Shown one piece after another: positions 9,859 to 52,903 of a stretch of DNA of 64,000 nucleotides. A program made the translations under genes and the position numbers. The notes beneath the pieces are model-generated. The model made no database searches. It was not told the DNA's origin and worked only from the letters and a program-made list of their open reading frames with translations. Position 1 is the stretch's first letter. Every line of letters begins with the position of its first letter. Location: assembly GCA_013816805.1 (NCBI GenBank), contig JACDDS010000002.1, forward strand, positions 73,530 through 137,529. The letters are read 5' to 3'. This DNA is from Chitinophagales bacterium. GTDB lineage: Bacteria; Bacteroidota; Bacteroidia; Chitinophagales; UBA10324.

Positions 9859-10046
9859 ATGCAGGAATAATCATTTCATTATAACTAATTTTCTGCTGCT
9901 ACAATTTTGGTTACCTTCATAAAGACTGCAGTAGTAGACCCCTGCATGCCTCCGGCGTGTCTCCTCCCGAGCTCTCTGCCGAAGACAGGCACACGGCGGC
10001 ACAAACACAAGGATTAAAACCTTTGGCTGAAAACTACTTTTGTAAA

Positions 10047-33175: not shown

Positions 33176-33208
33176 TTTTGAGATGTTTGTACTTAACTCC
33201 GTATTCGC

Positions 33209-33304
33209 ATGCCAGAAAAAAGCTTTCTGATATACAAATGGTTAGTCTCATAAAGAAAAAATGGTTGTGCGGTTTTGATATAGAAAGTGTGCGAAAATGA
33301 TATT
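33209..33304 (-). promoter_or_regulatory. conserved upstream module, copy A (in front of P7)
   Basis: Read on the plus strand: ATGCCAGAA at 33209-33217, with the palindrome CAGAAA-N5-TTTCTG. Direct repeats TGTGCGGTTTTGATATA (33267-33283) and TGTGCGAAAATGATATT (33288-33304) follow. The order and the ~58-bp offset match copies B and C. Confidence 0.5.
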
Positions 33305-33338
33305 GCTGAGCCCATCTTCCGTAACTGTTTACAATTCG

Positions 33339-35723: not shown

Positions 35724-35778
35724 GTATGAGCGAATTACTAACGTTATTATTTCAGCTTCACTGAATATTATTCTATTA

Positions 35779-38226: not shown

Positions 38227-38326
38227 AGATCAAGTTTTATCTACTATAGTCACTATAAAATTTCTTCTTTAGAAAGTCGTATCCCGTAGCTCATTATTGA
38301 AATTTATTTTTTTGATAATATTATAA

Positions 38327-39276
38327 TTACTCTGTTCTCAGGCTCTTTAACGGTTGATAAGTGCCACCCTTACCGTATGATAGCCGACCGTGCACGCTAC
38401 CAATGCAACCGTTACAAATGCTGCTAAAACAAACACATATCCCTGTACAGGGATTCGAAAAGCAAAATCCTGCAGCCATTTATTTCCTGACCACCGCAAC
38501 CGCCAGTCATTTATCGAAAACAAAAATGGACGAGCGGCTGCTGAAGTATCTTTGCTTTGAATGAAATTCTTGAGCTTATCATTCAATAAATCTCGATCTG
38601 CTTTCGGTTGCAGCTCTGCAAATGTTTGAACTCCGTTTGATTTCCAATCTTTCAGCCAGGCATTCTTTTCCTCAAAATTCTCAAACGGCATCAGCCAATC
38701 ATAAGAGTAGGTTGTGTTGTACGGAAAATCTTTAAACACTCCGGTGATCTTATATTCATCTGCGTTATTCACCTTCAATGTTTTACCAATGGGGTTTTCA
38801 TTGTCAAAAAATTTCCTCGACATTGTTTCAGAAATTACCAGTGAGTACACATCATCAAAAGCAGTACGGGAGTTTCCATAAATAAACTGCATTGAAAAAA
38901 TTTTAAAGATCTGCGAGTCTGCTTCATTTCCATTTTCAAATATTTCTTTCTCGCCCAATGAAAAGAGGGACCGGCTCCCCCAGTTAGTTCGTGCAGCTCG
39001 TTTAATACCAGGAATTTCTGACTGTGCCACAGCAGCAAATGGCCCTGGCATAGAAGCAAATGTGTATGTTTTTCCATCGTATGTTTGATTCTCAAGCAAC
39101 TGATAGATATTATCGCGGTTTTGAATGGAAGTATCGAACATTATTTCATTTTCAACCCACAGCATTATAAGTGCCGCACAGGTTATCCCAATTCCTAGTC
39201 CCACGATGTTTAAAAATCCAAATGTTTTATTCTTCCATAGGTTTCTCAAAGCCGTTATTAAATAATTTTTAATCAT
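38327..39276 (-). pseudogene. remnant of a duplicated-FtsX permease (internal ~1.5-kb deletion plus terminal frameshift)
   Basis: The family start (MIKNYLITALRNLWKNK) is the ATG at 39276; the longer ORF to 39324 uses a TTG. TM1 and most of the first periplasmic domain are intact. The frame then jumps straight into the family's last ~55 aa (NKWLQDFAFRI + final TM). The ORF stops at ALINR*, but shifting one base restores the family ending (N)PLKSLRTE* with its stop at 38327-38329. Confidence 0.8.
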
Positions 39277-39364
39277 AGCAGAAAGGAATTTGGCTTCTCG
39301 TAAGAGTTTGTGGTAATCTTTCAAGCTTGAAAGATTTATTTGTTGAAGTGTTTAAACACTATTA

Positions 39365-39477
39365 TGTTACAGCTTTGGATAAATAAATCTTTGAATTCTT
39401 ATGCCAATAATTCTAAGATGGCAGTTTTCAATGTCAGGCTTAAGAAAAGTTTTTTTACGGATTGCTCATGACTTATG
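39365..39477 (-). promoter_or_regulatory. decayed copy (D) of the upstream module, in front of the permease remnant
   Basis: TGTTACAGC box at 39365. The box ATGCCAATA (39401-39409) replaces ATGCCAGAA and the palindrome is lost. TTTTCAATG (39425-39433) is retained as in copy C. A 10/17 match to the first direct repeat (GGATTGCTCATGACTTA, 39459-39475) sits at the expected +58 offset. The second repeat is absent. Confidence 0.35.
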
Positions 39478-39490
39478 CCTAAACCTGTTA

Positions 39491-41827
39491 TTATTCCGCT
39501 CGTAACCCTTTTACCGGGTTTGCAAGTGCCACCTTCACGGCCTGGGAGCTCACCGTAAAAAATGCAATCGCCATTCCACAAATTCCTGTCGCGATGAAAA
39601 CCGTCCAGCTAATGTCGATGCGATACGCGTAATTCTGCAGCCATTTATTCATGAAATACCACGCTACCGGCGATGCGATAAGAAGCGCGACAAAAACAAG
39701 ACTCAGAAAGCCTTTTGAAAGTAATGCGACGATGTTGCTTACCGATGCACCTAATACTTTTCTTATTGTGATCTCTCTTGTGCGATTCACCGCAGCAAGC
39801 GCAGCTAATCCAAGCAGACCAAGGCATGCAAGAAAAATACACAGTGCGCCCGCTAATCCAACAATACTGCTCCATCTTGCTTCCGACTTATAAAAGCGAT
39901 CCAGATTTTCATCGAGGAGTGAATAGCGAAATGGTAAATCAGCAACTGAAGATGTCCATGCGGATTTTATTTCTGCCAGGGCTTTGGAAGGATCACCCGG
40001 TTGTATGCGAACAAAATATTTGTACGGCGCATAGCCATGAAACTCATGGAACATCTCCGGTTTCACTTCTTCGCTGAACGACAGATAATGAAAATCTTTC
40101 ACCACACCAATCACTGTAGGAATAAAGTTCTCTGAGTAGCCTTTCAACTGTTGCCCGACTGCATTTTGTATTGCCCAGCCAAAATTCTTCATCATCGTCT
40201 CATTGATAATCACAGAATTCAACGTATCTGATGTGATGTGCGGATCAAAATTTCTTCCTGCTAAAAGTTGTAAGCCAAGCACCTGCAAATAATTCGGATC
40301 AACAAAATATTCGTATACATCGTGATGCTTCTTCGTCATATCATCCCACGATGAAATACTCCAACCGGTTCCTTCACCCAAACTTAATTCCACGTTCTCT
40401 TTGTTGAAACCCGGATTTGCTGAGCGTAAATATTTTAACTGCTGAAGAATGATAAGCGTTGAAATGATTAATCCTGCAGAGAGAATGAATTGGAAGGTTA
40501 CGAGCGACTTTGTGAAAATGTTAGAGCCACCGAGTCGCATTTTCTGTTTTAACACTTCAATTGGCCTGAAACCGGACAGCACCAGCGCCGGATAACTACC
40601 AGCTAAAATTCCCACTAAAAGAATAAGAAGCATTAACATCCAGATCATTTCAGGAAACTGCTGAAATGAAAATGCGAGATGTGATCCTGCAAGCTGATTG
40701 AAATACGGAAGGAAAAATCGCCCAAGTAAAATTCCGATGGCGGAGGATAAAGCTGAAAGAAGAATTGCTTCTATCATGAACTGACCTATCAGTTGGTTCT
40801 TTCTGCTGCCAATTACTTTTCTTATTCCAACTTCCTTTGCGCGGCCTGCACTGCGACCAATAGCGAGCGTGGTGAAGTTGATGCAGGCAATAATCAGAAT
40901 GCTTGCCGCGATGGCGAGAAGAATCCAAATATTTTTCGGATCAACAGTACCGATGGCGCTTCCTGCCACTTGCGTAGTAGTGTGCATGTCGCGGATCGGC
41001 ATCAGCTTGTACGTTGTTGGAATGCCGGAACCTTTCCAACTGCTCTCTTTCAACTTCGCCATTTCATCAGGATACTTTTCACTGTAGAGATTATCCAGTC
41101 GTTTCTGATCATTAGGCAAATGACTTCCAGGTTGCAGTTGCAGGTAGGTTATGTAACCAAAGTGGTGCCACTCATTTTCGCTCTGCTTTCCCCAATCGGT
41201 TCGCAGATATGCCTGGAAGTTTACCATCACCTGGAACTGAATCGTAGAATTAGACGGTGCATCTTCACTTACCGCACTCACGATAAAAGGTTCAAATGCC
41301 TTATCAACTTTAATCTCCACAGTTTTTCCCATAGGGTCCTCACTGCCGAAAAGTTTTTTCGCAGCGGAAGCGCTTAGCACCACATGATGCGCATCATCAA
41401 GTGAGGAGAAAAGATTTCCTTCTTTACTGCGGAAAGAAAAGATTTTGAAGATTGACGGATCAGCATAGGTGATCGGAATCGGAAGCACCACGCCATTCAC
41501 TCTTGTAAAATCATCGCTCCACCCTTCTGCCATCCGGGCGTATTGCAGTACGCCGGGTAATTCGGCTTTCATTGCAGGGCCCAAAGGGATTGGCATGTAT
41601 GGACTTCCGTTAGCGGGTTCATCCTTTGACCCGGCACTCCATCGATAAACGCGGAAAATATTTTCACCGCCGGCATGAAAGCGATCGAACGTAAATTCAT
41701 TCACGGCATACAACAGGAACAAAATGAAGCACGCCAAACCAATCGAAAGCCCGAAGACATTGATCAGCGCCAAACTTCTTTGTCTTGAGAAATTGCGAAG
41801 TGCAATTTTTAAATAGTGTTGAAGCAT
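39491..41827 (-). CDS. duplicated-FtsX (MacB-type) ABC transporter permease, paralog P4
   Basis: 778 aa. N-terminus MLQHYLKIALRNF, FtsX cores RAKEVGIRKVIGS and RTREITIRKVLGA, C-terminus NPVKGLRAE. Its second periplasmic domain is shorter than in the other paralogs. Confidence 0.9.
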   Translation of the reverse strand: MLQHYLKIALRNFSRQRSLALINVFGLSIGLACFILFLLYAVNEFTFDRFHAGGENIFRVYRWSAGSKDEPANGSPYMPIPLGPAMKAELPGVLQYARMAEGWSDDFTRVNGVVLPIPITYADPSIFKIFSFRSKEGNLFSSLDDAHHVVLSASAAKKLFGSEDPMGKTVEIKVDKAFEPFIVSAVSEDAPSNSTIQFQVMVNFQAYLRTDWGKQSENEWHHFGYITYLQLQPGSHLPNDQKRLDNLYSEKYPDEMAKLKESSWKGSGIPTTYKLMPIRDMHTTTQVAGSAIGTVDPKNIWILLAIAASILIIACINFTTLAIGRSAGRAKEVGIRKVIGSRKNQLIGQFMIEAILLSALSSAIGILLGRFFLPYFNQLAGSHLAFSFQQFPEMIWMLMLLILLVGILAGSYPALVLSGFRPIEVLKQKMRLGGSNIFTKSLVTFQFILSAGLIISTLIILQQLKYLRSANPGFNKENVELSLGEGTGWSISSWDDMTKKHHDVYEYFVDPNYLQVLGLQLLAGRNFDPHITSDTLNSVIINETMMKNFGWAIQNAVGQQLKGYSENFIPTVIGVVKDFHYLSFSEEVKPEMFHEFHGYAPYKYFVRIQPGDPSKALAEIKSAWTSSVADLPFRYSLLDENLDRFYKSEARWSSIVGLAGALCIFLACLGLLGLAALAAVNRTREITIRKVLGASVSNIVALLSKGFLSLVFVALLIASPVAWYFMNKWLQNYAYRIDISWTVFIATGICGMAIAFFTVSSQAVKVALANPVKGLRAE

Positions 41828-41900
41828 CTTAATGTTTAAGGTGTGAGTTAATGTTGATTACCTCTCATTATTTAATTGTCGAAGTATTAATTCACTCTTT

Positions 41901-42047
41901 TGTTACAGCGCAGATCAATTAAATTACCTCTAAACATTGATCACATCAACATGCCAGAAAGAAGCATTCCTGATTTACAATTAGTTAGTATTTTATAAGG
42001 AAAAAAGGTGTTCGCTTATGATACATTTGCTGTTCGAAAATGATAGG
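41901..42047 (-). promoter_or_regulatory. conserved upstream module, copy B (in front of P4)
   Basis: Read on the plus strand: TGTTACAGCGCAGA..AATTAA box at 41901. ATGCCAGAA at 41951-41959 with CAGAA-N8-TCCTG. Direct repeats TGTTCGCTTATGATACA (42009-42025) and TGTTCGAAAATGATAGG (42031-42047), starting 22 bp apart. Confidence 0.55.
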
Positions 42048-42083
42048 TGTGGTTCACCGGATTTAATGCAGATGGCCGTGCCT

Positions 42084-44501
42084 TTACTCTGTTCTTAAAC
42101 TTTTAACCGGGTTTGCATTCGCTGCTTTCATTGCCTGAAATCCTACTGTAATGAGTGTAATCAGCAATGCTGAAATAGCAGCGATTAAAAACATCCACCA
42201 ACTCATGCTGATTCGGTATTCAAAATTTTGCAGCCACTTATTCATAGCGTAGAAGGCAAGAGGAAATGCAATCACAGATGCAATGGCCACCGTGATCATG
42301 AAATCTTTTGAGATTATGGAAAGCACGTGTGCATATGAGGCACCGAGAATTTTCCGGATGCCAATTTCCTTTGTCCTTCGGTTTACTACTAGTGTTGCCA
42401 ACCCAAACAATCCCATGCATGCAATGAAAATGGAGAGTACCGATGCCAGCAAAATGATGTTACTCACACGCTGTTCGTTGGCATATTGAGCGGCGATGGA
42501 TTCATCTAGAAAACGATAATCAAAATCCTGGTCGGCCGCGATCTTCTTCCAAGCATCGTGCAGAAGTTCAATGCCTGCGGATAAACTTCCTGCAGCGAGG
42601 CGAACACTCACTCTTGGCTGCGGAGCGACATTGATATTGATGTCGTTCGTTTGATTCGCCATCGAATCGGCTTGCAGTGCAAGAACCAGAGGCTTAACTT
42701 TTACATGAAGTGATTCATAATTAAAATCCTTCATGACACCAATCACATGCTGACTGAAATTACCGGGGAGTTTTTTTCCGATAGGATCTCCTATTTTAAA
42801 TTCATTCACGAATGCCTCATTCACGATCACAGCCTCGGCTTTATCTGCTGTGTTATTCTTCTGAAAATTTCTTCCTTCCACAATCTGAATGTTCATGGCA
42901 GGAATGAAATCTTCATCCACTTCATTCATATTTAAGTTGCCATATTTCCTTTGCTCATCTCTGAAGCCCATGTGAATCCAACTGTTTTCAGAAAAAGAAT
43001 AGAGCGAAGTGGTTGCTTCTTTTACCTGCGGAATTTTATTGAGTTCATTACGGAATCGCATTGCCATCTGACTGGCTTCCACTCCACCTTTATTCATTGG
43101 CACAATTACCACTTGCTCTTTATTATAGCCGAGATTTTTGTTTTTCATATAATTCAACTGACCACTGATTACGAGCGTGCAGATAATCATCGAGATCGAA
43201 GCAATGAACTGCCCGGCAATCAGTGACCGACGAAACAGTCCCACACTTCCCGAGCCTTTCAATTTCCCTTTGAAAACTTCGGTAGGATTAAAAGATGAAA
43301 GAACAAGAGAAGGATAAATACCTACGACGAAAGCAATAAAAAGGAGTAATGCGATAAAAAATAAAATCACCACCGGATCAAATGTTAAAGAAAGATGTCT
43401 CTGAAATAAATTGTTAAATGGATCCAGAAACAACAATGCGAAAAGAAATCCGATCACCACTGAAGTAATGGTGAAGAGGAATGCCTCTGTCCAGAATTGC
43501 TGGATCAATTGTTTTCTTTCTGCGCCCATCACTTTTCTCACGCCTACTTCCATCGCCCGATTGGTGGATCTTCCAATGGAAAGCGTAATGAAATTGATAC
43601 AGGCAATTAACAGAATCAGTATTCCAATGGTGGCAAGCACGTAAGAGTAAACCGGAGTGCTTGTTCCGTTGCCGGGAGGAACGGTACGTCCGAAATAAAT
43701 ATCGCTGATCGGTTGCAGGTACAAACTTAAAACGCCAGGCTGGTAATTGTCTCCTGAAATCACTTTAATCAGTGATTCAAATTTCGGAGCGAAGGATGCT
43801 GATGTTTCAGGTTGTTTCAAAAGCACAAATGATTCGGGATAGATCTGAGTCCACGCCGTCATCTGCTCCGGTGAAAAAAGATAGTGTGCATTGTCGAACG
43901 ACATCAGCATGTCGAATTGAATACTCGATTCTTCCGGTACATGATCCACGACGCCACTAACCGTGTACAGCACTTTATCGTCCCGCATTTGCAGTTCAAG
44001 ATTCAGTCCTATAGGATCTGTATTCCCAAAATACTTTTTTGCTTTTTCTTTGGTGATGATGATAGAATTCGCAGTGGGAAAAGGATTGTTCGGATTTCCT
44101 TGCGTCAATTCGAAGTCGAACATTTTGAAGAAAGCAACATCAACCATGTCAATGTCTTCGTTACTCGCCGTTTGATTGATTGCTTTTACATTCGATGAAA
44201 ATGAATTAACCCGGGTGAATTCCACCACATCCGGCATATTGGCTTTAATTGCGGGACCAAGGGGAATGGGCGTTGCGATGTCAGTATAAATTTTATCCGT
44301 ACCGTAATTCTCCTGCATCCACACGCGATAGAGCAGGTCCGATTTTGTGTGAAAGCAATCATAGTTCCATTCGCTTTTCACGAAGAGCATAATGAGAATA
44401 CACGAAGCAACTCCTACCGCAAGGCCTAAAATATTTATAGCAGTATAACCTTTATGTTTTAAGAGGTAACGTGCGGCGATTTTCAAATAATTTTTTATCA
44501 T
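42084..44501 (-). CDS. duplicated-FtsX (MacB-type) ABC transporter permease, paralog P3
   Basis: 805 aa. N-terminus MIKNYLKIAARYL, FtsX cores RAMEVGVRKVMGA and RTKEIGIRKILGA, C-terminus NPVKSLRTE. Confidence 0.9.
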   Translation of the reverse strand: MIKNYLKIAARYLLKHKGYTAINILGLAVGVASCILIMLFVKSEWNYDCFHTKSDLLYRVWMQENYGTDKIYTDIATPIPLGPAIKANMPDVVEFTRVNSFSSNVKAINQTASNEDIDMVDVAFFKMFDFELTQGNPNNPFPTANSIIITKEKAKKYFGNTDPIGLNLELQMRDDKVLYTVSGVVDHVPEESSIQFDMLMSFDNAHYLFSPEQMTAWTQIYPESFVLLKQPETSASFAPKFESLIKVISGDNYQPGVLSLYLQPISDIYFGRTVPPGNGTSTPVYSYVLATIGILILLIACINFITLSIGRSTNRAMEVGVRKVMGAERKQLIQQFWTEAFLFTITSVVIGFLFALLFLDPFNNLFQRHLSLTFDPVVILFFIALLLFIAFVVGIYPSLVLSSFNPTEVFKGKLKGSGSVGLFRRSLIAGQFIASISMIICTLVISGQLNYMKNKNLGYNKEQVVIVPMNKGGVEASQMAMRFRNELNKIPQVKEATTSLYSFSENSWIHMGFRDEQRKYGNLNMNEVDEDFIPAMNIQIVEGRNFQKNNTADKAEAVIVNEAFVNEFKIGDPIGKKLPGNFSQHVIGVMKDFNYESLHVKVKPLVLALQADSMANQTNDININVAPQPRVSVRLAAGSLSAGIELLHDAWKKIAADQDFDYRFLDESIAAQYANEQRVSNIILLASVLSIFIACMGLFGLATLVVNRRTKEIGIRKILGASYAHVLSIISKDFMITVAIASVIAFPLAFYAMNKWLQNFEYRISMSWWMFLIAAISALLITLITVGFQAMKAANANPVKSLRTE

Positions 44502-44582
44502 AGGAAAAATGTTTCCAGTTTCTGTTTAGGTTGGCGTCCTCATTAATTTTAATCCTGATCCATTCCGGATTTTTTTTTCTGA

Positions 44583-47009
44583 TTATTCGGTTCGTAAATT
44601 TTTTACCGGATTGGAAATTGCCGCTCGAATTGATTGTATACTGATTGTTGCAAAGGCAATGAATGATGCAAGAAGAGCGGCCACAGGAAAAATCCACCAG
44701 CTAATTTCCGTCCGATATGCAAATCCTTTCAGCCATTCGTTCATAGCATACCATCCGATAGGAAACGAGATTAATGCGGCAACGATCACCAGCTTTAAGA
44801 AATCGTAGGATAACATTCGCACAATACAACTCACGCTTGCGCCCAGTACTTTTCTTATTCCAATCTCTTTAAACCGCTGAAGAATTGTAAAGGATGACAA
44901 GCCAAGTAACCCCAAACATGCAATCAGAATAGCGATGATAGAAAACAGTGTGAACAGATGTTCCTGTTTCCGTTCCGCATCATACAGCCTGCTGAAATTA
45001 TTATCCAGAAAGGTATAATCAAATGCAAAGCCAGGTAAAAACTGATTCCATGCCTCTCTTAAATCATTTAACCCTGCATGGGTGTTATTTGCCGAAAGCT
45101 TAACTGAAAGACTGCCATAGTATTTTTTAATAACTGGTGTTCCCATGATCAGGATTACCGGAACAATCGGCTGATGCATCGATTCAAAATGAAAATCTTT
45201 CATAACACCAACCACCTTACCCTCAACATTCCCGTACTTAAATGCTTTTCCAATTGCATTTTTTGGGTTTTGCCAGCCAAGCATTTTTATTGCCGCCTCG
45301 TTTAAGATATAATTGTCTGTATCTTTTGGATATTCTGGTGAGAAATTTCTTCCGGCTACCATCTTAATACCATAGGTGGGTATAAATCCATAGTCTACTG
45401 CTACATATTTTATTGCTGCAGAAACAGGTACAGTTGAATCCGCGGAGATGGTTTGTGCACCCATATCATCAAGCAGCCGACCCGTTGGAATGCGTGAGGA
45501 ACGTGTAGCATCTTTGATAGTAGCATGCCGGAGCAATTCACTCTTGAATGCTTCAAAGGAGGGATCCAGAGCATAATTGTAGGTCATGGTCACCACCTGA
45601 TCCTTATCGAATCCCGGAGCGGTTTTCATTACATAATTCAGCTGGCGAAATACTATTGCAGTTGAAATAATAAGTATAATGGAGATGGTGAATTGAACGA
45701 CTACCAAAACCTTTCTAAATGAAATACTTCCCGTTCCGGGCTTAAAAATTCCTTTCAATGCAATTATAGGCTGGAAGGATGAAAGGTAGAGCGCAGGATA
45801 AATCCCTGCAAGAACTCCGACAATAAATGGAGTAATAAATAGAACGATCATTAGCCACCATCTCAATAAACCTGGTAGTGATAGCTGCCCGGTAACCTGG
45901 TTTAAAACGGGAAGTACCAGAATAGTCATTAGCAAAGCACATAACATCGCCGTCCAGCTCAATAAAACAGATTCGAAAAGGAACTGGGTAATTAAATTTC
46001 CGCGTTGAGCGCCAATCACCTTCCGGACACCAATCTCCCGCGAGCGAAGCGCCGATCTGGCAGTGGAAAGATTCATATAATTAATGCATGCAATCAGTAA
46101 TATGAAAAGACTGATTGCAGCGAAAATATACACGATAGTGATGTCACCATTCTGCTCTGCCTCATCATCCAAATGCGACCGCAGGTGTATATCCGTAAGC
46201 TTCTGAAGACTAAGCGCCGTATATTTCGACTGTTTTAATTCAGGGTGCATTTTGCTTTTCATGTGCCTGTCAATAAATGCCGGGAACTGGTTTGCTATTT
46301 TTTCTGCAGGATAATTTTCAGGCAACTTGATGTAGGTGAAAAATGAATTGTTACCATAATTGGTAAGCAGGTTATTTATTCCATAAATAGAAGAATCCTC
46401 GAGCGTAGGAAATGAAATGAGAATTTCAGGATGGATGTGGGCAGCTGCCGGAAAAGGCTGATAAATACCAGTTACTTTCAGATCATTCGTATTGTTAAGG
46501 CGCATCACCTTATTCATAGGGTCTTCACTTCCGAAATATTTTCTGGCTTCGTCCGGAGTAAGCATTACGCAAAATGGATCGTTTAATGCTGTTTCGGGAT
46601 CACCCTGCAAAACATTTACAGTGAAAATGTGAAACAAACTCCTATCAGCATACCAGGAACCCGGTTCATTAAAAATCTTTTCTTTATAGCGAAATGGTGT
46701 AGGGCCATTTGGAAGCAAACGAGTATAGTCTTCAATATCTGGAAAATCATTTTTCAGAAGTGGTCCGAAGGGAGGAGCAACGGAACTTAAATTCAGCTCC
46801 TGAATACCTTCGCTGTTATTGAAGCTCCTCGTAACACGGTATATCTGGCCTGCATTTTTATTATAGCGATCGAAACTTAGTTCATTAAGTATAAATGCCA
46901 GGATCAGCAAACAGCAGGTAAGGCCTACCGTTAATCCAAAAAGATTTATAAAGGAAGTGAACTTGTATTTTAATAGATTCCTGATTGCAATTTTAAAATA
47001 GTTGCTCAT
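44583..47009 (-). CDS. duplicated-FtsX (MacB-type) ABC transporter permease, paralog P2
   Basis: 808 aa. N-terminus MSNYFKIAIRNL, FtsX cores RSREIGVRKVIGA and RFKEIGIRKVLGA, C-terminus NPVKNLRTE. Confidence 0.9.
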   Translation of the reverse strand: MSNYFKIAIRNLLKYKFTSFINLFGLTVGLTCCLLILAFILNELSFDRYNKNAGQIYRVTRSFNNSEGIQELNLSSVAPPFGPLLKNDFPDIEDYTRLLPNGPTPFRYKEKIFNEPGSWYADRSLFHIFTVNVLQGDPETALNDPFCVMLTPDEARKYFGSEDPMNKVMRLNNTNDLKVTGIYQPFPAAAHIHPEILISFPTLEDSSIYGINNLLTNYGNNSFFTYIKLPENYPAEKIANQFPAFIDRHMKSKMHPELKQSKYTALSLQKLTDIHLRSHLDDEAEQNGDITIVYIFAAISLFILLIACINYMNLSTARSALRSREIGVRKVIGAQRGNLITQFLFESVLLSWTAMLCALLMTILVLPVLNQVTGQLSLPGLLRWWLMIVLFITPFIVGVLAGIYPALYLSSFQPIIALKGIFKPGTGSISFRKVLVVVQFTISIILIISTAIVFRQLNYVMKTAPGFDKDQVVTMTYNYALDPSFEAFKSELLRHATIKDATRSSRIPTGRLLDDMGAQTISADSTVPVSAAIKYVAVDYGFIPTYGIKMVAGRNFSPEYPKDTDNYILNEAAIKMLGWQNPKNAIGKAFKYGNVEGKVVGVMKDFHFESMHQPIVPVILIMGTPVIKKYYGSLSVKLSANNTHAGLNDLREAWNQFLPGFAFDYTFLDNNFSRLYDAERKQEHLFTLFSIIAILIACLGLLGLSSFTILQRFKEIGIRKVLGASVSCIVRMLSYDFLKLVIVAALISFPIGWYAMNEWLKGFAYRTEISWWIFPVAALLASFIAFATISIQSIRAAISNPVKNLRTE

Positions 47010-47201
47010 GGAAAAAGTGCCAGGTTAGTTTTTAGATTTCTGTAATTAGATTTCAGTAATCAGGTGTTTCAAGTTTGAAGTCTGAAAGTTTAAGGTTTGA
47101 TGCTGAAGTGTGTTTTATTTTGAATTTGTTTATCAGTATCCATTCAACATTATTTTATACTGAACTCAACCTGATGGCTGATACCTGAGAGCTCATTCTC
47201 T

Positions 47202-49625
47202 TCATTCTATCCTCAGTGATTTAACGGGGTTAATAAATGCCAATCTTAATATTTGTACGATCACGGTAAGCACAGCAATAGAAATAGAAAGCAACCCTGC
47301 AAGGATAAAAGTCCACCAGCTGATATTAATGCGGAAAACAAAATTTTGAAGCCAGCTATTCATCAGATACCAACCCATGGGGATTGCAATTATCAGCGCC
47401 ACAATAACCAGGACTAAAAAATATTTAAGAAACAAAGCACTGATATTTGCTATCGATGCACCAAGTACTTTTCGTATCCCAACTTCTTTAGTTCTGTTTG
47501 CTATAAAGAATGAAACCAGACCAAACAGACCAAGGCATGAAATAAAAATGGCGAGGGCAGCAACTACTTTATACAGCTTGGCAAGCTTTTCATCCTGCAG
47601 GTAAAATTGTGCAATGTTCTCATCGAGAAAAGTATTCCCGAAGAAATATTCAGGATAAATCCTATCCCATATTTTATTTACTGCTGTAATCGTTTCACTT
47701 ATAGTTCCGGGTAAAATCTTTATTCCGGCAATTCCATAATAATCTTTTTTGCAGGAGATGTAAGTAGGTTTTACGGTTTCATGCAAAGAATTCGTTTTAA
47801 AATCCTTTACAACACCAACTACTGGTTTCCACTTTCCTCTTCCAGTCCGGATCATTTTTCCGATAGCATCCTGAGGATTTGAAACTCCTAATTTTTTCAT
47901 CAGTGTCTTATTGATCACCACTTCTTTTGAGGTGTCTGATTGTTCATATCCTTGTCCTGCCAGAAACTTTAATCCGTATGTCCGGAAAAAATCTGCGTCT
48001 GCAAACTTGAGGTAAACATTAAAATCTTCATCTTTTGGCCGATGATCAAAAGAAAAATTTGTACTCCAGTCATTTTCAGAAGTGGGGGCATCACTGCTGA
48101 TGCTAACATTAGTAACAGATGAAAGCTGCTGCACCTCATTCTTAAAATCGCTGAAGCGGGCAATAGCAGTGGTATCACTGTATAAAGGAACCTGCATAAT
48201 CACATTGGGATTTAAGCCAAGGTCTGCCTGATGAATGTATTGCAGCAGACCTGCAGTAATAATGGTTGCGATTATGAGCACCTGTGAAATCAGAAATTGA
48301 AAAACCACCAATCCTGCCCGCAGACTTACACCTGTCTTAGTTCTGTTGGGGATTTTATTCTTAAGTGCCTGAATCGGCTGAAAACCGGAAAGTACTAATG
48401 CAGGGTATGTACCCGCTAACACAGTTACAGCTAAAATGATTATTGCAATCCATATCCAGACATTACTACTGAAAAGAATGGATACGTTATCCGGCAGGTT
48501 TGTAAGGTCTTTCACAAAAGGAAAAGCGGCAACTGCAATTGCGATTCCAATCACTGATGATGCAGTAACAATTAAAAATGTCTCTCCGGCAAATTGTTTT
48601 ACCAAATCAAACCTGCTGCTGCCGAGCACTTTGCGTACACCTACTTCCCTGGAACGCCGGGTAGCAAGTGCAGTAGCGAGATTAATGAAGTTAATACACG
48701 CCATCAGAACGACGAAAAGGGCAATCAGGATCACTCCGTTTAGAGTTGTTTTGCTCACCGTCCTTACATCGGAACCGTAATCCTGGTTGAAGTGAACATC
48801 GCTCAATGGCTGAAGCGAATTTAGCATCTGCTCATTGGTATTACTGCGGTAATGTTTTTTTGAAAACGAAGGAAGCAATCTATCAATAGATGCGGCTGAC
48901 ATGTTTGGAGGTAATAAAACATAAGCGTTGAAATTGCTGCTTATATTCCCCCAATCGCTTAGTTGATTGTATGAAGCGGAATCGTTGGTACGAAAAGTTA
49001 TAAACGACATTGCTATTTTTAACGGAATGCTGCTGTTATCAGGAGAGTCATTCATGATTCCATTCACCTGAAGCGTAAATGAATGGTTCACCTTAATAGA
49101 TTGTCCGATTGCCTTTTTCCAGTCACCAAAGAATTGCTCAGCAACGCTTTTACTTAGTGCAATGGAATTTGGTTCCGCCATCGCGGTAGCCGGATTCCCC
49201 GTGATCCAGGGAAAAGTGAATATTTTGAAAAAATCAGGCTGAATATAATAGATGCCATCGTCCTGCTTAAATTTTCTGACCTCCCCCGTTTCAGGATCGG
49301 TAACTGCAAAAAAGGAATTGAACTGGGAATAGGCAGTAGTTACATCTTTTAACTGGGGCATGTCAACCTGAAGTGCTTCTCCCAAAAGCAGTGGAACACC
49401 CGAGGTCTGAGCTTTTGTGCCATCCGAATAGCTCGTATTTGTTACTATCCGGTAGATTCGGCTTTTCTGCGAATTAAAGTGGTCGAAGCTTTTCTCAAAC
49501 TGCACATTAATAAAAATGATCAGCGCGCAGGCAACACTCAGTGCAAGTCCGGCAATATTGATGATCGTGAAGCTTCTGTTTCTTAGTAAATTTCGGAAGG
49601 CTGTTTTTAAATAATTTCTAATCAT
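47202..49625 (-). CDS. duplicated-FtsX (MacB-type) ABC transporter permease, paralog P1
   Basis: 807 aa. N-terminus MIRNYLKTAFRNL, FtsX cores RSREVGVRKVLGS and RTKEVGIRKVLGA, C-terminus NPVKSLRIE. Confidence 0.9.
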   Translation of the reverse strand: MIRNYLKTAFRNLLRNRSFTIINIAGLALSVACALIIFINVQFEKSFDHFNSQKSRIYRIVTNTSYSDGTKAQTSGVPLLLGEALQVDMPQLKDVTTAYSQFNSFFAVTDPETGEVRKFKQDDGIYYIQPDFFKIFTFPWITGNPATAMAEPNSIALSKSVAEQFFGDWKKAIGQSIKVNHSFTLQVNGIMNDSPDNSSIPLKIAMSFITFRTNDSASYNQLSDWGNISSNFNAYVLLPPNMSAASIDRLLPSFSKKHYRSNTNEQMLNSLQPLSDVHFNQDYGSDVRTVSKTTLNGVILIALFVVLMACINFINLATALATRRSREVGVRKVLGSSRFDLVKQFAGETFLIVTASSVIGIAIAVAAFPFVKDLTNLPDNVSILFSSNVWIWIAIIILAVTVLAGTYPALVLSGFQPIQALKNKIPNRTKTGVSLRAGLVVFQFLISQVLIIATIITAGLLQYIHQADLGLNPNVIMQVPLYSDTTAIARFSDFKNEVQQLSSVTNVSISSDAPTSENDWSTNFSFDHRPKDEDFNVYLKFADADFFRTYGLKFLAGQGYEQSDTSKEVVINKTLMKKLGVSNPQDAIGKMIRTGRGKWKPVVGVVKDFKTNSLHETVKPTYISCKKDYYGIAGIKILPGTISETITAVNKIWDRIYPEYFFGNTFLDENIAQFYLQDEKLAKLYKVVAALAIFISCLGLFGLVSFFIANRTKEVGIRKVLGASIANISALFLKYFLVLVIVALIIAIPMGWYLMNSWLQNFVFRINISWWTFILAGLLSISIAVLTVIVQILRLAFINPVKSLRIE

Positions 49626-49719: not shown

Positions 49720-50397
49720 TCACGCCATAATATTTTCCATCACTGTTTGTCCATCGAGCATACGGATAATGCGATGGCTGTATCGGGCGTCATGCTCACT
49801 GTGGGTTACCATCACAATGGTGGTTCCCTGTTCATTTAAATCAGTAAGCAGCTGCATCACTTCGCTGCCATTGTGTGAATCAAGATTACCGGTAGGTTCA
49901 TCCGCGAGAATAAGCTTGGGGTTATTAACTACTGCCCGGGCCACAGCAACCCGTTGTTGCTGTCCGCCGGAAAGCTGTTGCGGATAGTGGTTGCGGCGGT
50001 GCATGATCTGCATCTTATCAAGCACCTCTTCTACACGTTTTTTTCGATCTGCACCTTTTACTCCGGTGTAAATCAGCGGAAGCTCGACATTCTCATATAC
50101 CGTAAGCTCATCAATCAGGTTAAAGCTTTGAAATACAAATCCAATGTTTCTTTTACGGAGATCCGCACGCTTGCGTTCGTTAAAGTGCGCAACCTCAGTT
50201 CCGTTAAAAAGAAAACTTCCGCTATCCGGATCATCAAGCAGTCCCACAATATTCAGAAGGGTGGATTTGCCACATCCTGAAGGGCCCATTACGGCAATAA
50301 ATTCTCCATCCTTCACTTCAAGTGAAAGCCTGTTAAGCGCGACAGTCTCTACTTCTTCTGTGCGGTAAATTTTTTCAAGTTCAGTGATCTTAAGCAT
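49720..50397 (-). CDS. ABC transporter ATP-binding protein (MacB/LolD-type NBD)
   Basis: 225 aa. Motifs present: Walker A GPSGCGKST, Q-loop FVFQSFNL, signature LSGGQQQRVAVARA, Walker B LILADEPTGNLD and H-loop VTHS. Confidence 0.95.
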   Translation of the reverse strand: MLKITELEKIYRTEEVETVALNRLSLEVKDGEFIAVMGPSGCGKSTLLNIVGLLDDPDSGSFLFNGTEVAHFNERKRADLRKRNIGFVFQSFNLIDELTVYENVELPLIYTGVKGADRKKRVEEVLDKMQIMHRRNHYPQQLSGGQQQRVAVARAVVNNPKLILADEPTGNLDSHNGSEVMQLLTDLNEQGTTIVMVTHSEHDARYSHRIIRMLDGQTVMENIMA

Positions 50398-50481: not shown

Positions 50482-51735
50482 TTATTTTTTCAAAACCAAT
50501 TCGTCCATAGTTCCATAATTCTCATAACTGGACGTAACCACCTTGTCCCCGGGCTTCAGCCCCTGTAATACTTCGTAATAATCCGGATTTTGCCTGCCAA
50601 TCTGAATATCCGTTTTATAAGCTGTAGCTCCGGACGCATTTACTTTGAAAATCCAGTTGCCTCCAGTCTGCTGAAAAAATCCTCCCTTAGGTAACAGCAA
50701 TGCCTGGGTTTCATCACTTAATGCCAAACGAATCTGTAAAGTTTGTCCCCTCCGGATGCCCTGGGGTACTTCATTTACAAATTCCATATCCACCTGGAAG
50801 CGACCATTGTTTACCTGTGTAAATATTTTTTTTATCTTAAGCTGGTATGTTTTGTTTGCAAATGTGAAGTCACCCATCAGCCCGGTAAAAATTCTGGAGA
50901 TGTAGTGTTCATCCACATCTACACGTACTTTATATCCGCTTAGCACATCAATTTGCCCAAGCCGGTCTCCGTTATTTTTCGACTCACCAATTTCTGCATC
51001 GAGTGAAGTGAGCTGGCCATCAACCGGGGCACGTACAATCAGATCACCTACTTTCCTTTGCATAAGAGAAAGGGCGTTTTGCATATGTGCATAAGACTCA
51101 TGCATTTGCCGGAGCTGCTGTTTGGTGGAAATTGAATCACTTGCAAGTGTCCGCCCTGCAAGTTTCCTACGGCTTATCTGGTAATCATAATTATTTTTTG
51201 CAGATTGGAATTCCTGCAAGCCGATCGCTCCTTGTTTATACAGTGTACTGTCGACAAAGAAAATGCGCTGTGCTTCTTCAAAAGCATTTTCTACATCCGC
51301 CATTTGGTTGAGCTCACGAATGGTGTTTTGATCTGAAAGATTTTTTGTGTTTTGCATTTGAGTCAAAACATCAAATACTGCAGTTTGCCGGTTGGCAAGA
51401 TCCAGCTCGAGATCCGTGTTCACCAACTTAAGTATGGGGTCGTTTTTTTTCAGCACAGCTCCATCTTCAACATATTTTTCTTCTACTCTTCCGCCTTCGG
51501 TGGCATCCAGGTAAATGGTGGTGATAGGAAGTACCACACCATTTACTGGAATGAATTCCTGGAAAGATCCATTCTTCACTTCACTAATAGTGATTCGCTC
51601 TGTATCTACGTTTAACCGGCTTTTTCCTGTGGTGAAATAATAACTGGCGATGATCAGCAGTGCCATGCCTGCAATACCAGCATAGGTAAGGATTCGTTTC
51701 GTAGTCCACCTTTTTTTTGGAATTACTCTGTCCAA
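50482..51735 (-). CDS. HlyD/MacA-family periplasmic adaptor (membrane fusion protein)
   Basis: 417 aa with an N-terminal TM anchor (ILTYAGIAGMALLIIASYYF). It has a lipoyl-like half (VEEKYVEDGAVLKKNDPILKL), a long helical hairpin region, and beta-barrel/MPD regions (VRAPVDGQLTSL). The ORF opens with a TTG codon at 51735; there is no in-frame ATG before the TM helix. Confidence 0.85.
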   Translation of the reverse strand: MDRVIPKKRWTTKRILTYAGIAGMALLIIASYYFTTGKSRLNVDTERITISEVKNGSFQEFIPVNGVVLPITTIYLDATEGGRVEEKYVEDGAVLKKNDPILKLVNTDLELDLANRQTAVFDVLTQMQNTKNLSDQNTIRELNQMADVENAFEEAQRIFFVDSTLYKQGAIGLQEFQSAKNNYDYQISRRKLAGRTLASDSISTKQQLRQMHESYAHMQNALSLMQRKVGDLIVRAPVDGQLTSLDAEIGESKNNGDRLGQIDVLSGYKVRVDVDEHYISRIFTGLMGDFTFANKTYQLKIKKIFTQVNNGRFQVDMEFVNEVPQGIRRGQTLQIRLALSDETQALLLPKGGFFQQTGGNWIFKVNASGATAYKTDIQIGRQNPDYYEVLQGLKPGDKVVTSSYENYGTMDELVLKK

Positions 51736-51791
51736 CTCTTTAAGCTTTAGAATCTATTTGTATTATTGAAATGCGCAGCTACAAGTGTTTT

Positions 51792-51939
51792 TGTTACATG
51801 TGCAGAAGAATTAATTTTTATGCCGGCGTTATGATAGGAATATGCCAGAACAGGTATTTTCTGATTTTCAATGCATTAATGAAATAAGAACAATCAAACC
51901 TTGTTCGCTTTTGATACAATCTATGTTCGCTTTTGTGTG
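51792..51939 (-). promoter_or_regulatory. conserved upstream module, copy C (in front of the adaptor gene)
   Basis: Read on the plus strand: TGTTACATGTGCAGA..AATTAA box at 51792. ATGCCAGAA at 51842-51850 with CAGAA-N8-TTCTG. Direct repeats TGTTCGCTTTTGATACA (51902-51918) and TGTTCGCTTTTGTGTG (51924-51939), starting 22 bp apart. Confidence 0.55.
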
Positions 51940-52063
51940 TAAAGAAATATAATCACAGCAAGCGATCTGTCACCCCGTATAGATATATAACGCTTGGGAA
52001 GAACCTCGAATAAATTGTAATTTGACCCCGATTTTTCTTCATCGTTTTCGATAAAACCATATT

Positions 52064-52903
52064 ATGCCGGAGTATTCCAATCCAGAAATGCTTGTGTCAA
52101 CAGAATGGGTAGATGAGCATAAAACTGATCAAAACATCGTAATAGCCGAAGTAGATGTTGATACAGCTTCTTATACAGAAGGTCATATTCCTAATGCTAT
52201 TGGCTGGAATTGGCAAACACAATTGTGTGATACAATTCAACGGGATGTTATCAGTAAAGCTGATCTGGAAAAGCTTCTTGGACAGAGCGGTATTTCAAAT
52301 AACTCAACAATAATTCTTTATGGCGACAGTAATAATTGGTTTGCTGCCTGGGCCCACTGGCAACTTAAGATGTATGGTCATGCGGATGTGCGCATCATGA
52401 ATGGCGGAAGGAAAAAATGGTTATCGGAAGGAAGAGAACTGTCCAGAGATATGCCACCTCAAAAATTAGTTCGCTACAATGCACAGGATCGCGATGAATC
52501 CTTGCGTACTTACCTGAGACAGGCTATGCAGGCAATGGATGCTGAAGATTATGTGATGGTGGATGTTCGTTCCGGAGATGAATTTACCGGTAAAATACTT
52601 TCACCGCCCGGCTTGCCTGAAACCTGCCAGCGTGGGGGTCATATTCCCGGGGCTAAAAATATTCCATGGGCACAGGCTTGCAATGAAGACGGTACTTTTA
52701 AATCGCGGCAGGATCTGGAAGCGCTGTATATGGGAAAAGGAATCACACCCGAAAAAAAAGTAATTGCCTACTGCCGGATCGGAGAACGTTCCAGCCATAC
52801 CTGGTTTGTGCTTAAATATTTACTGGGGTATCCTAACGTTACTAACTATGATGGTTCCTGGACTGAATGGGGCAATCTCGTTGGTGCGCCTGTTGAAAAA
52901 TAA
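52064..52903 (+). CDS. tandem-rhodanese sulfurtransferase (thiosulfate/3-mercaptopyruvate sulfurtransferase family)
   Basis: 279 aa with two rhodanese domains. The second domain has the active-site loop CRIGERSS. The ending (NYDGSWTEWG) is typical of SseA/CysA-type enzymes. Confidence 0.85.
   Translation: MPEYSNPEMLVSTEWVDEHKTDQNIVIAEVDVDTASYTEGHIPNAIGWNWQTQLCDTIQRDVISKADLEKLLGQSGISNNSTIILYGDSNNWFAAWAHWQLKMYGHADVRIMNGGRKKWLSEGRELSRDMPPQKLVRYNAQDRDESLRTYLRQAMQAMDAEDYVMVDVRSGDEFTGKILSPPGLPETCQRGGHIPGAKNIPWAQACNEDGTFKSRQDLEALYMGKGITPEKKVIAYCRIGERSSHTWFVLKYLLGYPNVTNYDGSWTEWGNLVGAPVEK

What the first reader, a model, noticed from the sequence alone, without database searches (positions are those of the whole stretch)
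51792..51939. Composite conserved cis-module upstream of the adaptor gene (repeats + palindrome/TGGCAT + TGTTACA box)
This non-coding region holds an ordered set of elements that recurs with near-identical spacing at 41901..42047 and 33209..33304. In gene orientation the order is as follows. First, two direct repeats starting 22 bp apart (plus-strand TGTTCGCTTTTGATACA and TGTTCGCTTTTGTGTG). Second, about 35 nt on, TTG(A/T)A(A/T)ATCAG. Third, a palindrome CAGAA-N7/8-TTCTG whose promoter-proximal arm is part of TTCTGGCAT. Fourth, 42 nt further, CTGC(A/G)C(A/-)TGTAACAAAA. Direct repeats two helical turns apart are the architecture used by response-regulator-type activators such as the LytTR and OmpR families. 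The fixed-length palindrome looks like a dimer operator. No regulator gene is visible in the window, so the cognate factor is unknown.
Basis: partly seen in the sequence, partly recalled or inferred. Interest (0 to 1): 0.65.

Follow-up and report, generated by a model that had tools for sequence, protein, structure and literature searches.

The report
Sigma-54 promoters of an efflux-pump array
The repeated non-coding module is most likely an ordinary enhancer-dependent (sigma-54) promoter with its activator-binding sites, present three times in front of an efflux-pump gene array and conserved across a whole order of soil bacteria; the likely regulator gene sits elsewhere in the same genome.

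Summary
Three copies of the module lie at 51829-51939, 41939-42047 and 33203-33304. All are intergenic, on the minus strand, directly upstream of exporter genes (HlyD adaptor, two MacB/FtsX permeases). A profile built only from 77 other genomes hits exactly these three places in the 64-kb window (E = 4e-10, 7e-14, 7e-8).

All 80 orthologous adaptor genes (Chitinophagales/Sphingobacteriales) carry the same fixed-geometry module: two 17-bp sites TGTATCAAAAcCGnACA 21-22 bp apart; TAA-N4-TTGanAAtCA; then TGGCAY-N4-TT. In 69 of 76 loci a divergent sigma-54-dependent response regulator plus histidine kinase sits next to it.

My reading is a sigma-54 promoter: TGGCAT is the -24 element, and the "direct repeats" are the enhancer (UAS) for an NtrC-family activator. 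The window lacks the regulator, but the same MAG encodes its orthologue on another contig (MBA3647522.1; adaptor MBA3647373.1).

- The LytTR/OmpR idea is not supported.
- The palindrome "operator" is not supported: it is absent from all 77 orthologues.
- The TGTAACA box is lineage-restricted, lies in the predicted 5' leader, and is unexplained.
- The -12 element is non-canonical (a conserved T, no GC).

New member of a known kind; modest interest.

The parts
51924..51939 (-). Copy 1, distal activator site (gene orientation CACACAAAAGCGAACA). Only the CGAACA half-site is well kept.
51902..51918 (-). Copy 1, proximal activator site TGTATCAAAAGCGAACA (TGT-N11-ACA), 22 bp from the distal site.
51861..51879 (-). 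Copy 1, central element TAA-N4-TTGAAAATCAG. Conserved as TAA-N4-tTGanAAtCA in orthologues. It resembles the reverse complement of the IHF core consensus.
   Evidence: WAA-N4-YTG at -30..-32 in 70 of 80 modules: 77 orthologues plus the 3 window copies
51842..51850 (-). Copy 1, TTCTGGCAT; TGGCAT (51842-51847) is the predicted sigma-54 -24 element.
51831..51837 (-). Copy 1, predicted -12 region (CTATCAT). Only T at position 12 (51836) matches the conserved T (97% in orthologues). No GC.
51819..51823 (-). Copy 1, predicted transcription start (about 24-26 nt downstream of the GG). Inferred, not measured.
   Evidence: geometry of sigma-54 promoters (established knowledge) applied
51789..51805 (-). 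Copy 1, leader box CTGCACATGTAACAAAA in the predicted 5' UTR (about +17 to +33). Function unknown.
50482..51735 (-). HlyD-family periplasmic adaptor gene (TTG start), first gene of the unit driven by copy 1. It is followed by the ABC ATPase 49720-50397 and by MacB/FtsX permeases.
42009..42045 (-). Copy 2, two activator sites (TATCATTTTCGAACA and TGTATCATAAGCGAACA), 22 bp apart.
41970..41988 (-). Copy 2, central element TAA-N4-TTGTAAATCAG.
41951..41959 (-). Copy 2, TTCTGGCAT (-24 element TGGCAT 41951-41956).
41898..41913 (-). Copy 2, leader box CTGCGCTGTAACAAAA, upstream of permease 39491-41827.
33266..33302 (-). Copy 3, two activator sites (TATCATTTTCGCACA and TATCAAAACCGCACA), 22 bp apart.
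33227..33245 (-). Copy 3, central element TAA-N4-TTGTATATCAG.
33209..33217 (-). Copy 3, TTCTGGCAT (-24 element), 33 nt before the ATG of permease 30701-33175. Short leader, no TGTAACA box.

Best explanation
Each copy is an enhancer-dependent, sigma-54-type promoter.

Proposed layout:
- Sigma-54 RNA polymerase holoenzyme binds TGGCAT (-24) and a weak T-containing -12 region, forming a closed complex.
- A phosphorylated NtrC-family response regulator (REC-AAA+-HTH_8) binds the two 17-bp sites TGTATC-N5-CGnACA. These lie 22 bp apart, so on the same DNA face, with centres at about -87 and -109.
- The conserved TAA-N4-TTGanAAtCA element between them (about -57 to -41) probably provides a protein-induced or intrinsic bend. 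The bend would let the activator oligomer touch the holoenzyme and drive open-complex formation by ATP hydrolysis.

The three copies split the exporter array into three co-regulated transcription units: adaptor-ATPase-permeases; permease 39491-41827 onwards; permease 30701-33175.

The regulator and its kinase are not in the window. Their orthologues are on another contig of the same MAG.

What is shown and what is inferred:
- Shown: motif conservation, fixed geometry, and the gene association with the activator.
- Inferred: sigma-54 dependence, activator binding, the bend, the transcription start, and the inducing signal (unknown; envelope or antimicrobial stress is a guess from the cargo genes).
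For: 1. All 80 orthologous adaptor loci carry the module within 260 nt upstream, on the same strand.
2. The consensus with fixed spacing is TGTATCAAAAcCGnACA...TGTAtCAnAAaCGaACA...TAA-N4-tTGanAAtCA...TGGCAY-N4-TT.
3. TGGCAY is present in 77 of 80 upstream regions.
4. T at position 12 is 97% conserved and T at position 11 is 82%.
5. Half-sites start at -57..-60 and -79..-82 from TGGCAY, 22 bp apart in 43 of 58 loci and 21 bp in 14 of 58.
6. In 69 of 76 loci a divergent protein with Response_reg + Sigma54_activat + HTH_8 lies upstream, and in 64 a histidine kinase follows it (Pfam; BLAST).
8. The same MAG encodes the orthologous activator and kinase. P0166 (MBA3647522.1) is 78% identical to the L001 activator. 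The adaptor is MBA3647373.1, and both come from run SRR11719871.
9. The activator's HTH (NGNITKAAKELGLTRTALYRRLTKYDI) matches the family consensus, which is at least 90% conserved at most positions of this stretch; the two positions that differ are T where the others have S.
10. A published in-silico study links sigma-54 promoters to COG0577 FtsX permeases in Bacteroidia (PMC12316311).
Against: - The canonical GC of the -12 element is not conserved, either in the family or in the window. Positions 12-15 read TATC, TGTG and TACG in the three copies. In relatives that do have TTGC, it sits 1 nt closer to TGGCAY than in the textbook consensus.
- The activator's sigma-54 contact loop is GAFTDA, not GAFTGA, in P0166 and in 36 of 67 orthologues. 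This variant is reported as tolerated (PMC4641369), but its effect is called unknown for VfmH (PMC10714721).
- No rpoN gene, transcription start or binding data are available.
- No IHF is established for Bacteroidota (my knowledge).
- The activator is unlinked in this genome, so the pairing rests on orthology.
Confidence: 0.85

Rival explanations
1. The NtrC-family regulator binds the repeats but activates a sigma-70-family (sigma-A) promoter, independently of sigma-54. TGGCAT would then be something other than a -24 element.
For: There is no conserved GC at -12. The contact loop is the GAFTDA variant in the same-genome regulator and in 36 of 67 orthologues. For VfmH, which has the same variant, a sigma-54 interaction was not detected (PMC10714721).
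Against: - TGGCAY sits at a fixed distance and orientation in 77 of 80 genomes, with a 97% conserved T ten bases after the GG.
- 18 of 67 orthologues keep exact GAFTGA in front of the same promoter architecture.
- No Bacteroidota-type -33 TTG / -7 TAnnTTTG pair is evident by eye downstream of the repeats, and the sigma-70-type matches are not placed downstream of the repeats so as to drive the adaptor gene.
- GAFTDA is listed among tolerated variants.
Confidence: 0.07
2. One reading: a LytTR- or OmpR-type response regulator binds the direct repeats and activates an ordinary promoter, and the CAGAA-N7/8-TTCTG palindrome is the operator of a separate dimeric regulator.
For: The 21-22-bp repeat period is the one used by LytTR regulators (my knowledge). 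The palindrome is perfect in two of the three window copies.
Against: - The adjacent regulator in 69 of 76 loci is NtrC-family.
- The repeat units are 17 bp with TGT-N11-ACA ends, not 9-bp LytTR boxes.
- The palindrome is absent from all 77 orthologues and imperfect in copy 2. Its outer CA/TG pairs come from the two conserved motifs.
Confidence: 0.04
3. The copies are a generic intergenic repeat, or mere leftovers of gene duplication, with no regulatory role. Alternatively they encode a structured leader RNA.
For: The downstream permease genes are paralogues, so their upstream regions could have been copied with them.
Against: - There are only three copies in 64 kb, all directly upstream of exporter genes.
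- Motif blocks are conserved while the spacers have diverged, in 80 genomes of two orders.
- There is no folding signal (z = 0.17 and -0.66) and no Rfam match.
Confidence: 0.02

Closest known systems
NtrC-activated glnAp2-type sigma-54 promoters (enteric bacteria)
   Same: A TGGCAC-like -24 element; two activator sites about 80-110 bp upstream on the same DNA face; an activator that is a REC-AAA+-HTH(Fis) response regulator paired with a histidine kinase (the glnAp2 description is from my knowledge).
   Different: The sites are TGT-N11-ACA units with asymmetric inner halves rather than the NtrC dyad. The -12 GC is missing. The cargo is an efflux system, not nitrogen assimilation. The activator gene is unlinked in this genome.
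NifA/IHF-dependent nifH promoters
   Same: An upstream site with TGT...ACA ends (the NifA UAS is TGT-N10-ACA, my knowledge), and a bend site between the UAS and the -24 element. Here TAA-N4-TTGA resembles the reverse complement of the IHF core WATCAANNNNTTR.
   Different: The spacing is N11 (N10 in some relatives). IHF is not established in Bacteroidota. The bend element sits closer to the -24 element.
ZraSR (HydHG) envelope-stress two-component system of E. coli
   Same: A sigma-54-dependent response regulator and kinase encoded divergently from the target gene, with binding sites in the shared intergenic region. JGI labels the orthologues 'NtrC family response regulator HydG'.
   Different: That label is similarity-based only. 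The targets here are MacA/MacB-like exporter genes, and the signal is unknown.
Predicted sigma-54 control of FtsX-like (COG0577) ABC permeases in Bacteroidia (PMC12316311, 2025)
   Same: The same gene family and phylum, and the same proposed sigma factor.
   Different: That study is a genome-wide PSSM enrichment. In the passages read it does not describe the UAS, the central element, the cognate two-component system or multiple promoters within one array.
BceRS-BceAB-type control of FtsX-family peptide-antibiotic exporters in Firmicutes
   Same: A two-component system dedicated to an FtsX-family ABC exporter (my knowledge).
   Different: BceR is OmpR-type and acts at sigma-A promoters. Here the regulator is NtrC-type with a TGGCAY promoter.

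Membership tests
sigma-54 (-24/-12) promoter | GG-containing -24 element matching TGGCAC | tested here: met
   TGGCAT in all 3 window copies. TGGCAY in 77 of 80 orthologous upstream regions, with TGGTAT in two more.
sigma-54 (-24/-12) promoter | GC-containing -12 element (TTGCW), with GC ten bases after GG | tested here: not met
   Only T at position 12 (97%) and T at position 11 (82%) are conserved. GC is not. The window copies read TATC, TGTG and TACG. This is a consensus feature rather than an absolute one: published E. coli sigma-54 promoters lack it (PMC12316311). Even so, it lowers the membership claim.
sigma-54 (-24/-12) promoter | Dependence on an enhancer-binding protein with a sigma-54 interaction AAA+ domain | tested here: met
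   This is met by gene association only. PF00158 + REC + HTH_8 proteins are divergent neighbours in 69 of 76 loci, and an orthologue exists in the same MAG. Functional dependence was not tested.
sigma-54 (-24/-12) promoter | rpoN present in the genome; transcription start 12 nt downstream of the -12 element | not testable with these tools
   Only 64 kb of the genome is available, there are no transcript data, and no rpoN lies in the window or in the fetched loci.
NtrC-family enhancer (UAS) | Two or more activator sites 70 bp or more upstream of the promoter, phased on one DNA face | tested here: met
   Half-sites at -57..-60 and -79..-82 from TGGCAY, 21-22 bp apart in 57 of 58 loci and 22 bp apart in all three window copies.
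NtrC-family enhancer (UAS) | Dyad symmetry of each site, as expected for an HTH dimer | tested here: inconclusive
   Only the ends are symmetric (TGT-N11-ACA). Some relatives have perfect TGTTCG-N4-CGAACA. In the window the left halves are degenerate (TATCA).
LytTR / OmpR response-regulator binding sites | Short direct repeats with a 21-22-bp (LytTR) or about 10-11-bp (OmpR) period, plus a co-occurring LytTR or OmpR regulator | tested here: not met
   The period fits LytTR, but the units are 17 bp with dyad ends. The co-occurring regulator is NtrC-family in 69 of 76 loci. No regulator of any kind lies in the window.
Palindromic operator of a dimeric regulator | An inverted repeat conserved in orthologous promoters | tested here: not met
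   Arms of 5 bp or more in 0 of 77 orthologues (3% in shuffles). Copy 2 is imperfect.
IHF-type bend site | A match to WATCAANNNNTTR between the UAS and the promoter, and IHF encoded in the genome | tested here: inconclusive
   TAA-N4-TTGA (the reverse complement of part of the core) sits at a fixed position in 70 of 80 modules (77 orthologues plus the 3 window copies). The window copies have 1-2 mismatches to the full core (by eye). The presence of IHF is not testable.
Structured cis-regulatory RNA (leader or riboswitch) | Stable or covarying secondary structure, or a match to a known family | tested here: not met
   z-scores of 0.17 and -0.66 for the two window leaders. No Rfam match at E <= 1.

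The most novel reading that the evidence does not exclude
In this lineage the promoters may have acquired a second layer of control. Two features are candidates. The first is a 5-6-bp inverted repeat (CAGAA-N7/8-TTCTG) whose proximal arm abuts the -24 GG. The second is the leader box CTGCRC(A)TGTAACAAAA at about +17 to +33. Either could be the operator of an unknown factor, for example a repressor that blocks sigma-54 holoenzyme or acts as a roadblock. That factor would replace the terminator-like leader hairpin seen in about a quarter of the relatives. Separately, the family-wide -12 element without GC, combined with GAFTDA activators, might mark a Bacteroidota-specific variant of sigma-54 promoter recognition.
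Probability: 0.12. Interest if true: 0.5.

Novelty: new member of a known kind. Interest (0 to 1): 0.3.

Why it matters
It turns an anonymous repeated motif into a testable regulon. One unlinked two-component system (an NtrC-type activator plus kinase) would switch on three promoters that together drive one adaptor, one ATPase and seven or eight paralogous MacB-type permeases.

The same circuit is conserved in at least 80 Chitinophagales and Sphingobacteriales genomes. That gives a precise motif for finding further targets, and it provides cultivable relatives in which the unknown signal could be sought. It also adds mechanistic detail (UAS, geometry, cognate activator) to a recent purely statistical link between sigma-54 and FtsX-type permeases in Bacteroidota.

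It is not a new kind of regulation.

Tried and rejected
1. LytTR/OmpR reading. Rejected because the co-occurring regulator is NtrC-family.
2. Palindrome as a conserved operator. Rejected because it is absent in 77 orthologues.
3. Leader or module as structured RNA. No folding signal, and no Rfam hits in the window or in 7 related loci.
4. Sigma-70-type promoter scan of 51600-52100. Only weak, unhelpfully placed matches and no terminators. By eye there is no Bacteroidota -33/-7 pair.
5. TGTAAC as an ECF-type -35 box. TGTAAC-N17-CG fits only copy 1 and L017, not copy 2 or L001 (by eye), so I dropped it. GTAAC is in 14 of 77 leaders against about 6 expected, which is weak.
6. Autoregulatory module next to the unlinked two-component system. 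No HMM hit in L082 and no half-sites upstream of the activator gene.
7. Other intergenic gaps of the array. No further full copies. There is one UAS-less remnant upstream of the truncated permease fragment, and one isolated TGGCAC.
8. Literature on a Bacteroidota-specific sigma-54 consensus or a characterised orthologous system. Nothing found in the searchable library.
9. rpoN in the fetched DNA. None found.

Full report
**What the window holds.** The region is part of a Chitinophagales metagenome-assembled genome. The adaptor protein is 100% identical to NCBI MBA3647373.1, "MAG: Chitinophagales bacterium".

On the minus strand lie these genes:
- an HlyD-family periplasmic adaptor (50482-51735, TTG start);
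- an ABC ATPase (49720-50397);
- seven full-length MacB_PCD/FtsX permeases of about 800 aa (30701-49625);
- one truncated permease fragment (38347-39324).

None of the 30 largest ORFs I scanned across the window is a transcription regulator. The gene divergent from the adaptor is a rhodanese.

**Checking the observation.** The three copies align over about 150 nt, with conserved blocks separated by diverged spacers. Exact-pattern scans show each block is specific to the three sites:

| Pattern | Matches in window | Expected by chance |
|---|---|---|
| TTCTGGCAT | 3 | 0.9 |
| ATCAGRAA-N4-9-TTCTGG | 3 | 0.02 |
| TATCA-N4-CGMACA | 5 exact, all in the modules, 22 bp apart | – |
| CTGCRC(N)TGTAACAAAA | 2 | 0 |

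All copies are intergenic and point at the next minus-strand gene. There are two qualifications. The TGTAACA box exists only in copies 1 and 2. The palindrome is interrupted in copy 2.

**Comparative evidence.** The adaptor is highly conserved (68-86% identity) across Chitinophagales and Sphingobacteriales. I fetched 80 orthologous loci from different species.

- Every one has the same module within 260 nt upstream of the adaptor, on the same strand.
- The consensus is TGTATCAAAAcCGnACA - 5 nt - TGTAtCAnAAaCGaACA - about 21 nt - TAA-N4-tTGanAAtCA - about 13 nt - TGGCAY-N4-TT.
- TGGCAY occurs in 77 of 80 upstream regions. Two more have TGGTAT at the equivalent place.
- The geometry is rigid. 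The CGnACA half-sites start 57-60 and 79-82 nt upstream of the T of TGGCAY. They are 22 bp apart in 43 of 58 loci and 21 bp apart in 14 of 58. WAA-N4-YTG starts at -30 to -32 in 70 of the 80 modules examined (77 orthologues plus the three window copies).
- A profile HMM built from the orthologues alone finds exactly three sites in the 64-kb window. They are 42045-41939 (E = 7e-14), 51935-51829 (3.6e-10) and 33302-33203 (7.3e-8), all on the minus strand.

This rules out a generic scattered repeat. It shows selection on the blocks rather than mere co-duplication with the permease paralogues.

**Identity of the regulator.** In 69 of 76 loci with enough upstream sequence, the divergent neighbour is a protein of about 452 aa. 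In 64 loci it is followed by a protein of about 447 aa. Pfam identifies the first as Response_reg + Sigma54_activat + AAA_lid_14 + HTH_8, a sigma-54-dependent NtrC-family response regulator. The second is a histidine kinase.

The window belongs to the minority in which this two-component system is not adjacent. The same holds for a Mucilaginibacter group (L006, L008, L009, L011, L012). The system does exist in the same MAG:
- P0166 is 78% identical to the activator of the closest relative, L001.
- It is NCBI MBA3647522.1, only 149 accession numbers from the adaptor.
- It comes from the same sequencing run (SRR11719871).
- A histidine kinase follows it.

Its C-terminal helix-turn-helix matches the family consensus, which is at least 90% conserved at most positions of that stretch; the two positions that differ are T where the others have S. 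The same DNA specificity is therefore expected.

**Interpretation.** The module reads as a classical enhancer-dependent promoter.
- TGGCAT is the -24 element of a sigma-54 promoter.
- The "direct repeats" are two activator sites on the same DNA face, with centres at about -87 and -109 from the inferred start.
- Each unit has symmetric ends (TGT-N11-ACA). In some relatives it is a perfect dyad, TGTTCG-N4-CGAACA, as expected for an HTH dimer.
- The element TAA-N4-TTGanAAtCA lies between the enhancer and the promoter. It resembles the reverse complement of the IHF core WATCAANNNNTTR (my knowledge), so a bend site is the most economical reading. That step is an inference, because IHF is not established in this phylum.

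The three copies would make three co-regulated units out of the exporter array. Across the related loci the module also precedes permease genes 12 times, with short leaders like copy 3.

**Weak points.**
- The -12 element is not canonical. Only T at position 12 (97%) and T at position 11 (82%) are conserved. The GC dinucleotide is not. The window copies read TATC, TGTG and TACG at positions 12-15.
- The activator's sigma-54 contact loop is GAFTDA in P0166 and in 36 of 67 orthologues. It is GAFTGA in 18 and GSFTGA in 9.
- GAFTDA is listed among variants that keep activity in Desulfovibrio (PMC4641369). For VfmH of Dickeya its consequence is called unknown (PMC10714721).
- I therefore keep a rival at about 7% in which the NtrC-type protein works without sigma-54.
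- No rpoN gene, transcription start or binding data could be obtained here.

**The palindrome.** CAGAA-N7/8-TTCTG is 5 bp in copy 1, 6 bp in copy 3 and interrupted in copy 2. Among 77 orthologues no arm reaches 5 bp, whereas about 3% would in shuffled sequence. The outer CA...TG pairs arise automatically from the conserved ...ATCA and TGGCA... motifs. It is not a conserved operator. A lineage-specific role cannot be excluded.

**The TGTAACA box.**
- It starts 50 nt after the T of TGGCAT in copies 1 and 2. An equivalent box is in L001 (49 nt after the T) and L017 (55 nt).
- This places it in the predicted 5' leader, at about +17 to +33.
- The leaders have no significant secondary structure (z = 0.17 and -0.66), and no Rfam family matches.
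- Other relatives carry TTCTCA(T) at a similar place (21 of the 77 leaders match T[TC]CTCA). A GC-rich hairpin with a T-run often follows, in 21 of 79 leaders with compensatory stem changes. No Rfam family matched in seven related loci, five of which carry that hairpin.
- The function of the box is unexplained.

**Comparison with what is known.**
- The architecture matches NtrC/glnAp2, NifA-IHF/nifH and ZraSR-type promoters (my knowledge).
- A 2025 PSSM study reported enrichment of sigma-54 promoters upstream of COG0577 FtsX-like permeases in Bacteroidia, and called it the first such link (PMC12316311).
- I found no experimental work on this two-component system or its sites.

**Verdict.** This is a new, well-defined member of a known kind of regulatory element. 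Interest is modest.

Noticed in passing
window 30701-49625 (minus strand): One adaptor and one ABC ATPase are followed by seven full-length MacB_PCD/FtsX permease paralogues of about 800 aa, plus one truncated fragment. The array is split into three units by the three promoters. Why one ATPase and adaptor would serve so many permeases is unclear.
   Followed up: partly
window 39365-39425 (minus strand), upstream of truncated ORF 38347-39324: A UAS-less remnant of the module (TTGAAAAC...TGGCAT at 39401-39406...CTGTAACA at 39365-39372) sits in front of a 325-aa fragment that has only a MacB_PCD domain. It looks like a decayed fourth promoter and pseudogene left by recombination among paralogues.
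   Followed up: partly
window 47017-47022 (minus strand): An isolated TGGCAC lies 13 nt before the ATG of permease 44583-47009, with no upstream repeats. Probably chance.
   Followed up: no
L003, L004, L013, L015, L023, L034-L037, L043, L048, L050, L053, L056, L063 and others: leader between TGGCAY and the adaptor start (about 9900-10000 in most loci): 21 of 79 orthologous leaders hold a GC-rich hairpin followed by a T-run (terminator-like). The stems differ in sequence but keep pairing. The hairpin is often preceded by TTCTCATG. No Rfam family matched in the seven related loci scanned (five of them with this hairpin). It could be an attenuator or a short sigma-54-dependent RNA. It is absent from the window copies.
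   Followed up: partly
L029, L032, L033, L040, L041, L042, L047, L052, L055, L059, L061, L069, L071, L079: about 700-830 nt upstream of the adaptor (e.g. L033 9171-9291): A second full module lies between the two-component system and the adaptor's own module. In L033, L052 and L061 it precedes a small ORF of about 93-96 aa (or about 62 aa if read from an internal Met) ending ...(F/A)ADLWNIQRRRKN...KR(M/I)IF; L068 holds a related 115-aa ORF behind a second module at 254-365; no ORF of 80 aa or more was found behind the module in the other loci. No Pfam family matches the ORF. It is a possible extra regulon member.
   Followed up: partly
L008 16422-16538, L010 17479-17594, L014 6570-6680 and 4303-4400: In Mucilaginibacter-type loci the module also precedes small secreted proteins of about 95 aa (signal peptide, C-terminal PPPAPPAPH, no Pfam hit). 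In L014 it also precedes a 345-aa secreted repeat protein.
   Followed up: partly
L082 6001-8692 (same MAG, other contig): The orthologous sigma-54 response regulator and kinase pair is unlinked from the exporter. It sits between a Cu-binding MopE-like gene and an EF-G-like gene. There is no module and there are no half-sites upstream of it, so the shared-intergenic autoregulation possible in relatives is lost.
   Followed up: yes
activator orthologues in L001-L080 and P0166: The sigma-54 contact loop is GAFTDA in 36 of 67, GAFTGA in 18, GSFTGA in 9, and GAYTDA or GSFTDA in 4. The non-canonical loop coincides with a promoter family that lacks the -12 GC.
   Followed up: partly
L005, L015, L026, L027 (about 9750-9870) and L006, L008, L009, L012 (about 9680-9820), minus strand: In some loci the enhancer region also scores on the opposite strand. 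There are perfect dyads such as TGTTCGATAACGAACA. In the Mucilaginibacter loci a second, divergent module faces an upstream permease gene, so one intergenic region can serve both directions.
   Followed up: partly
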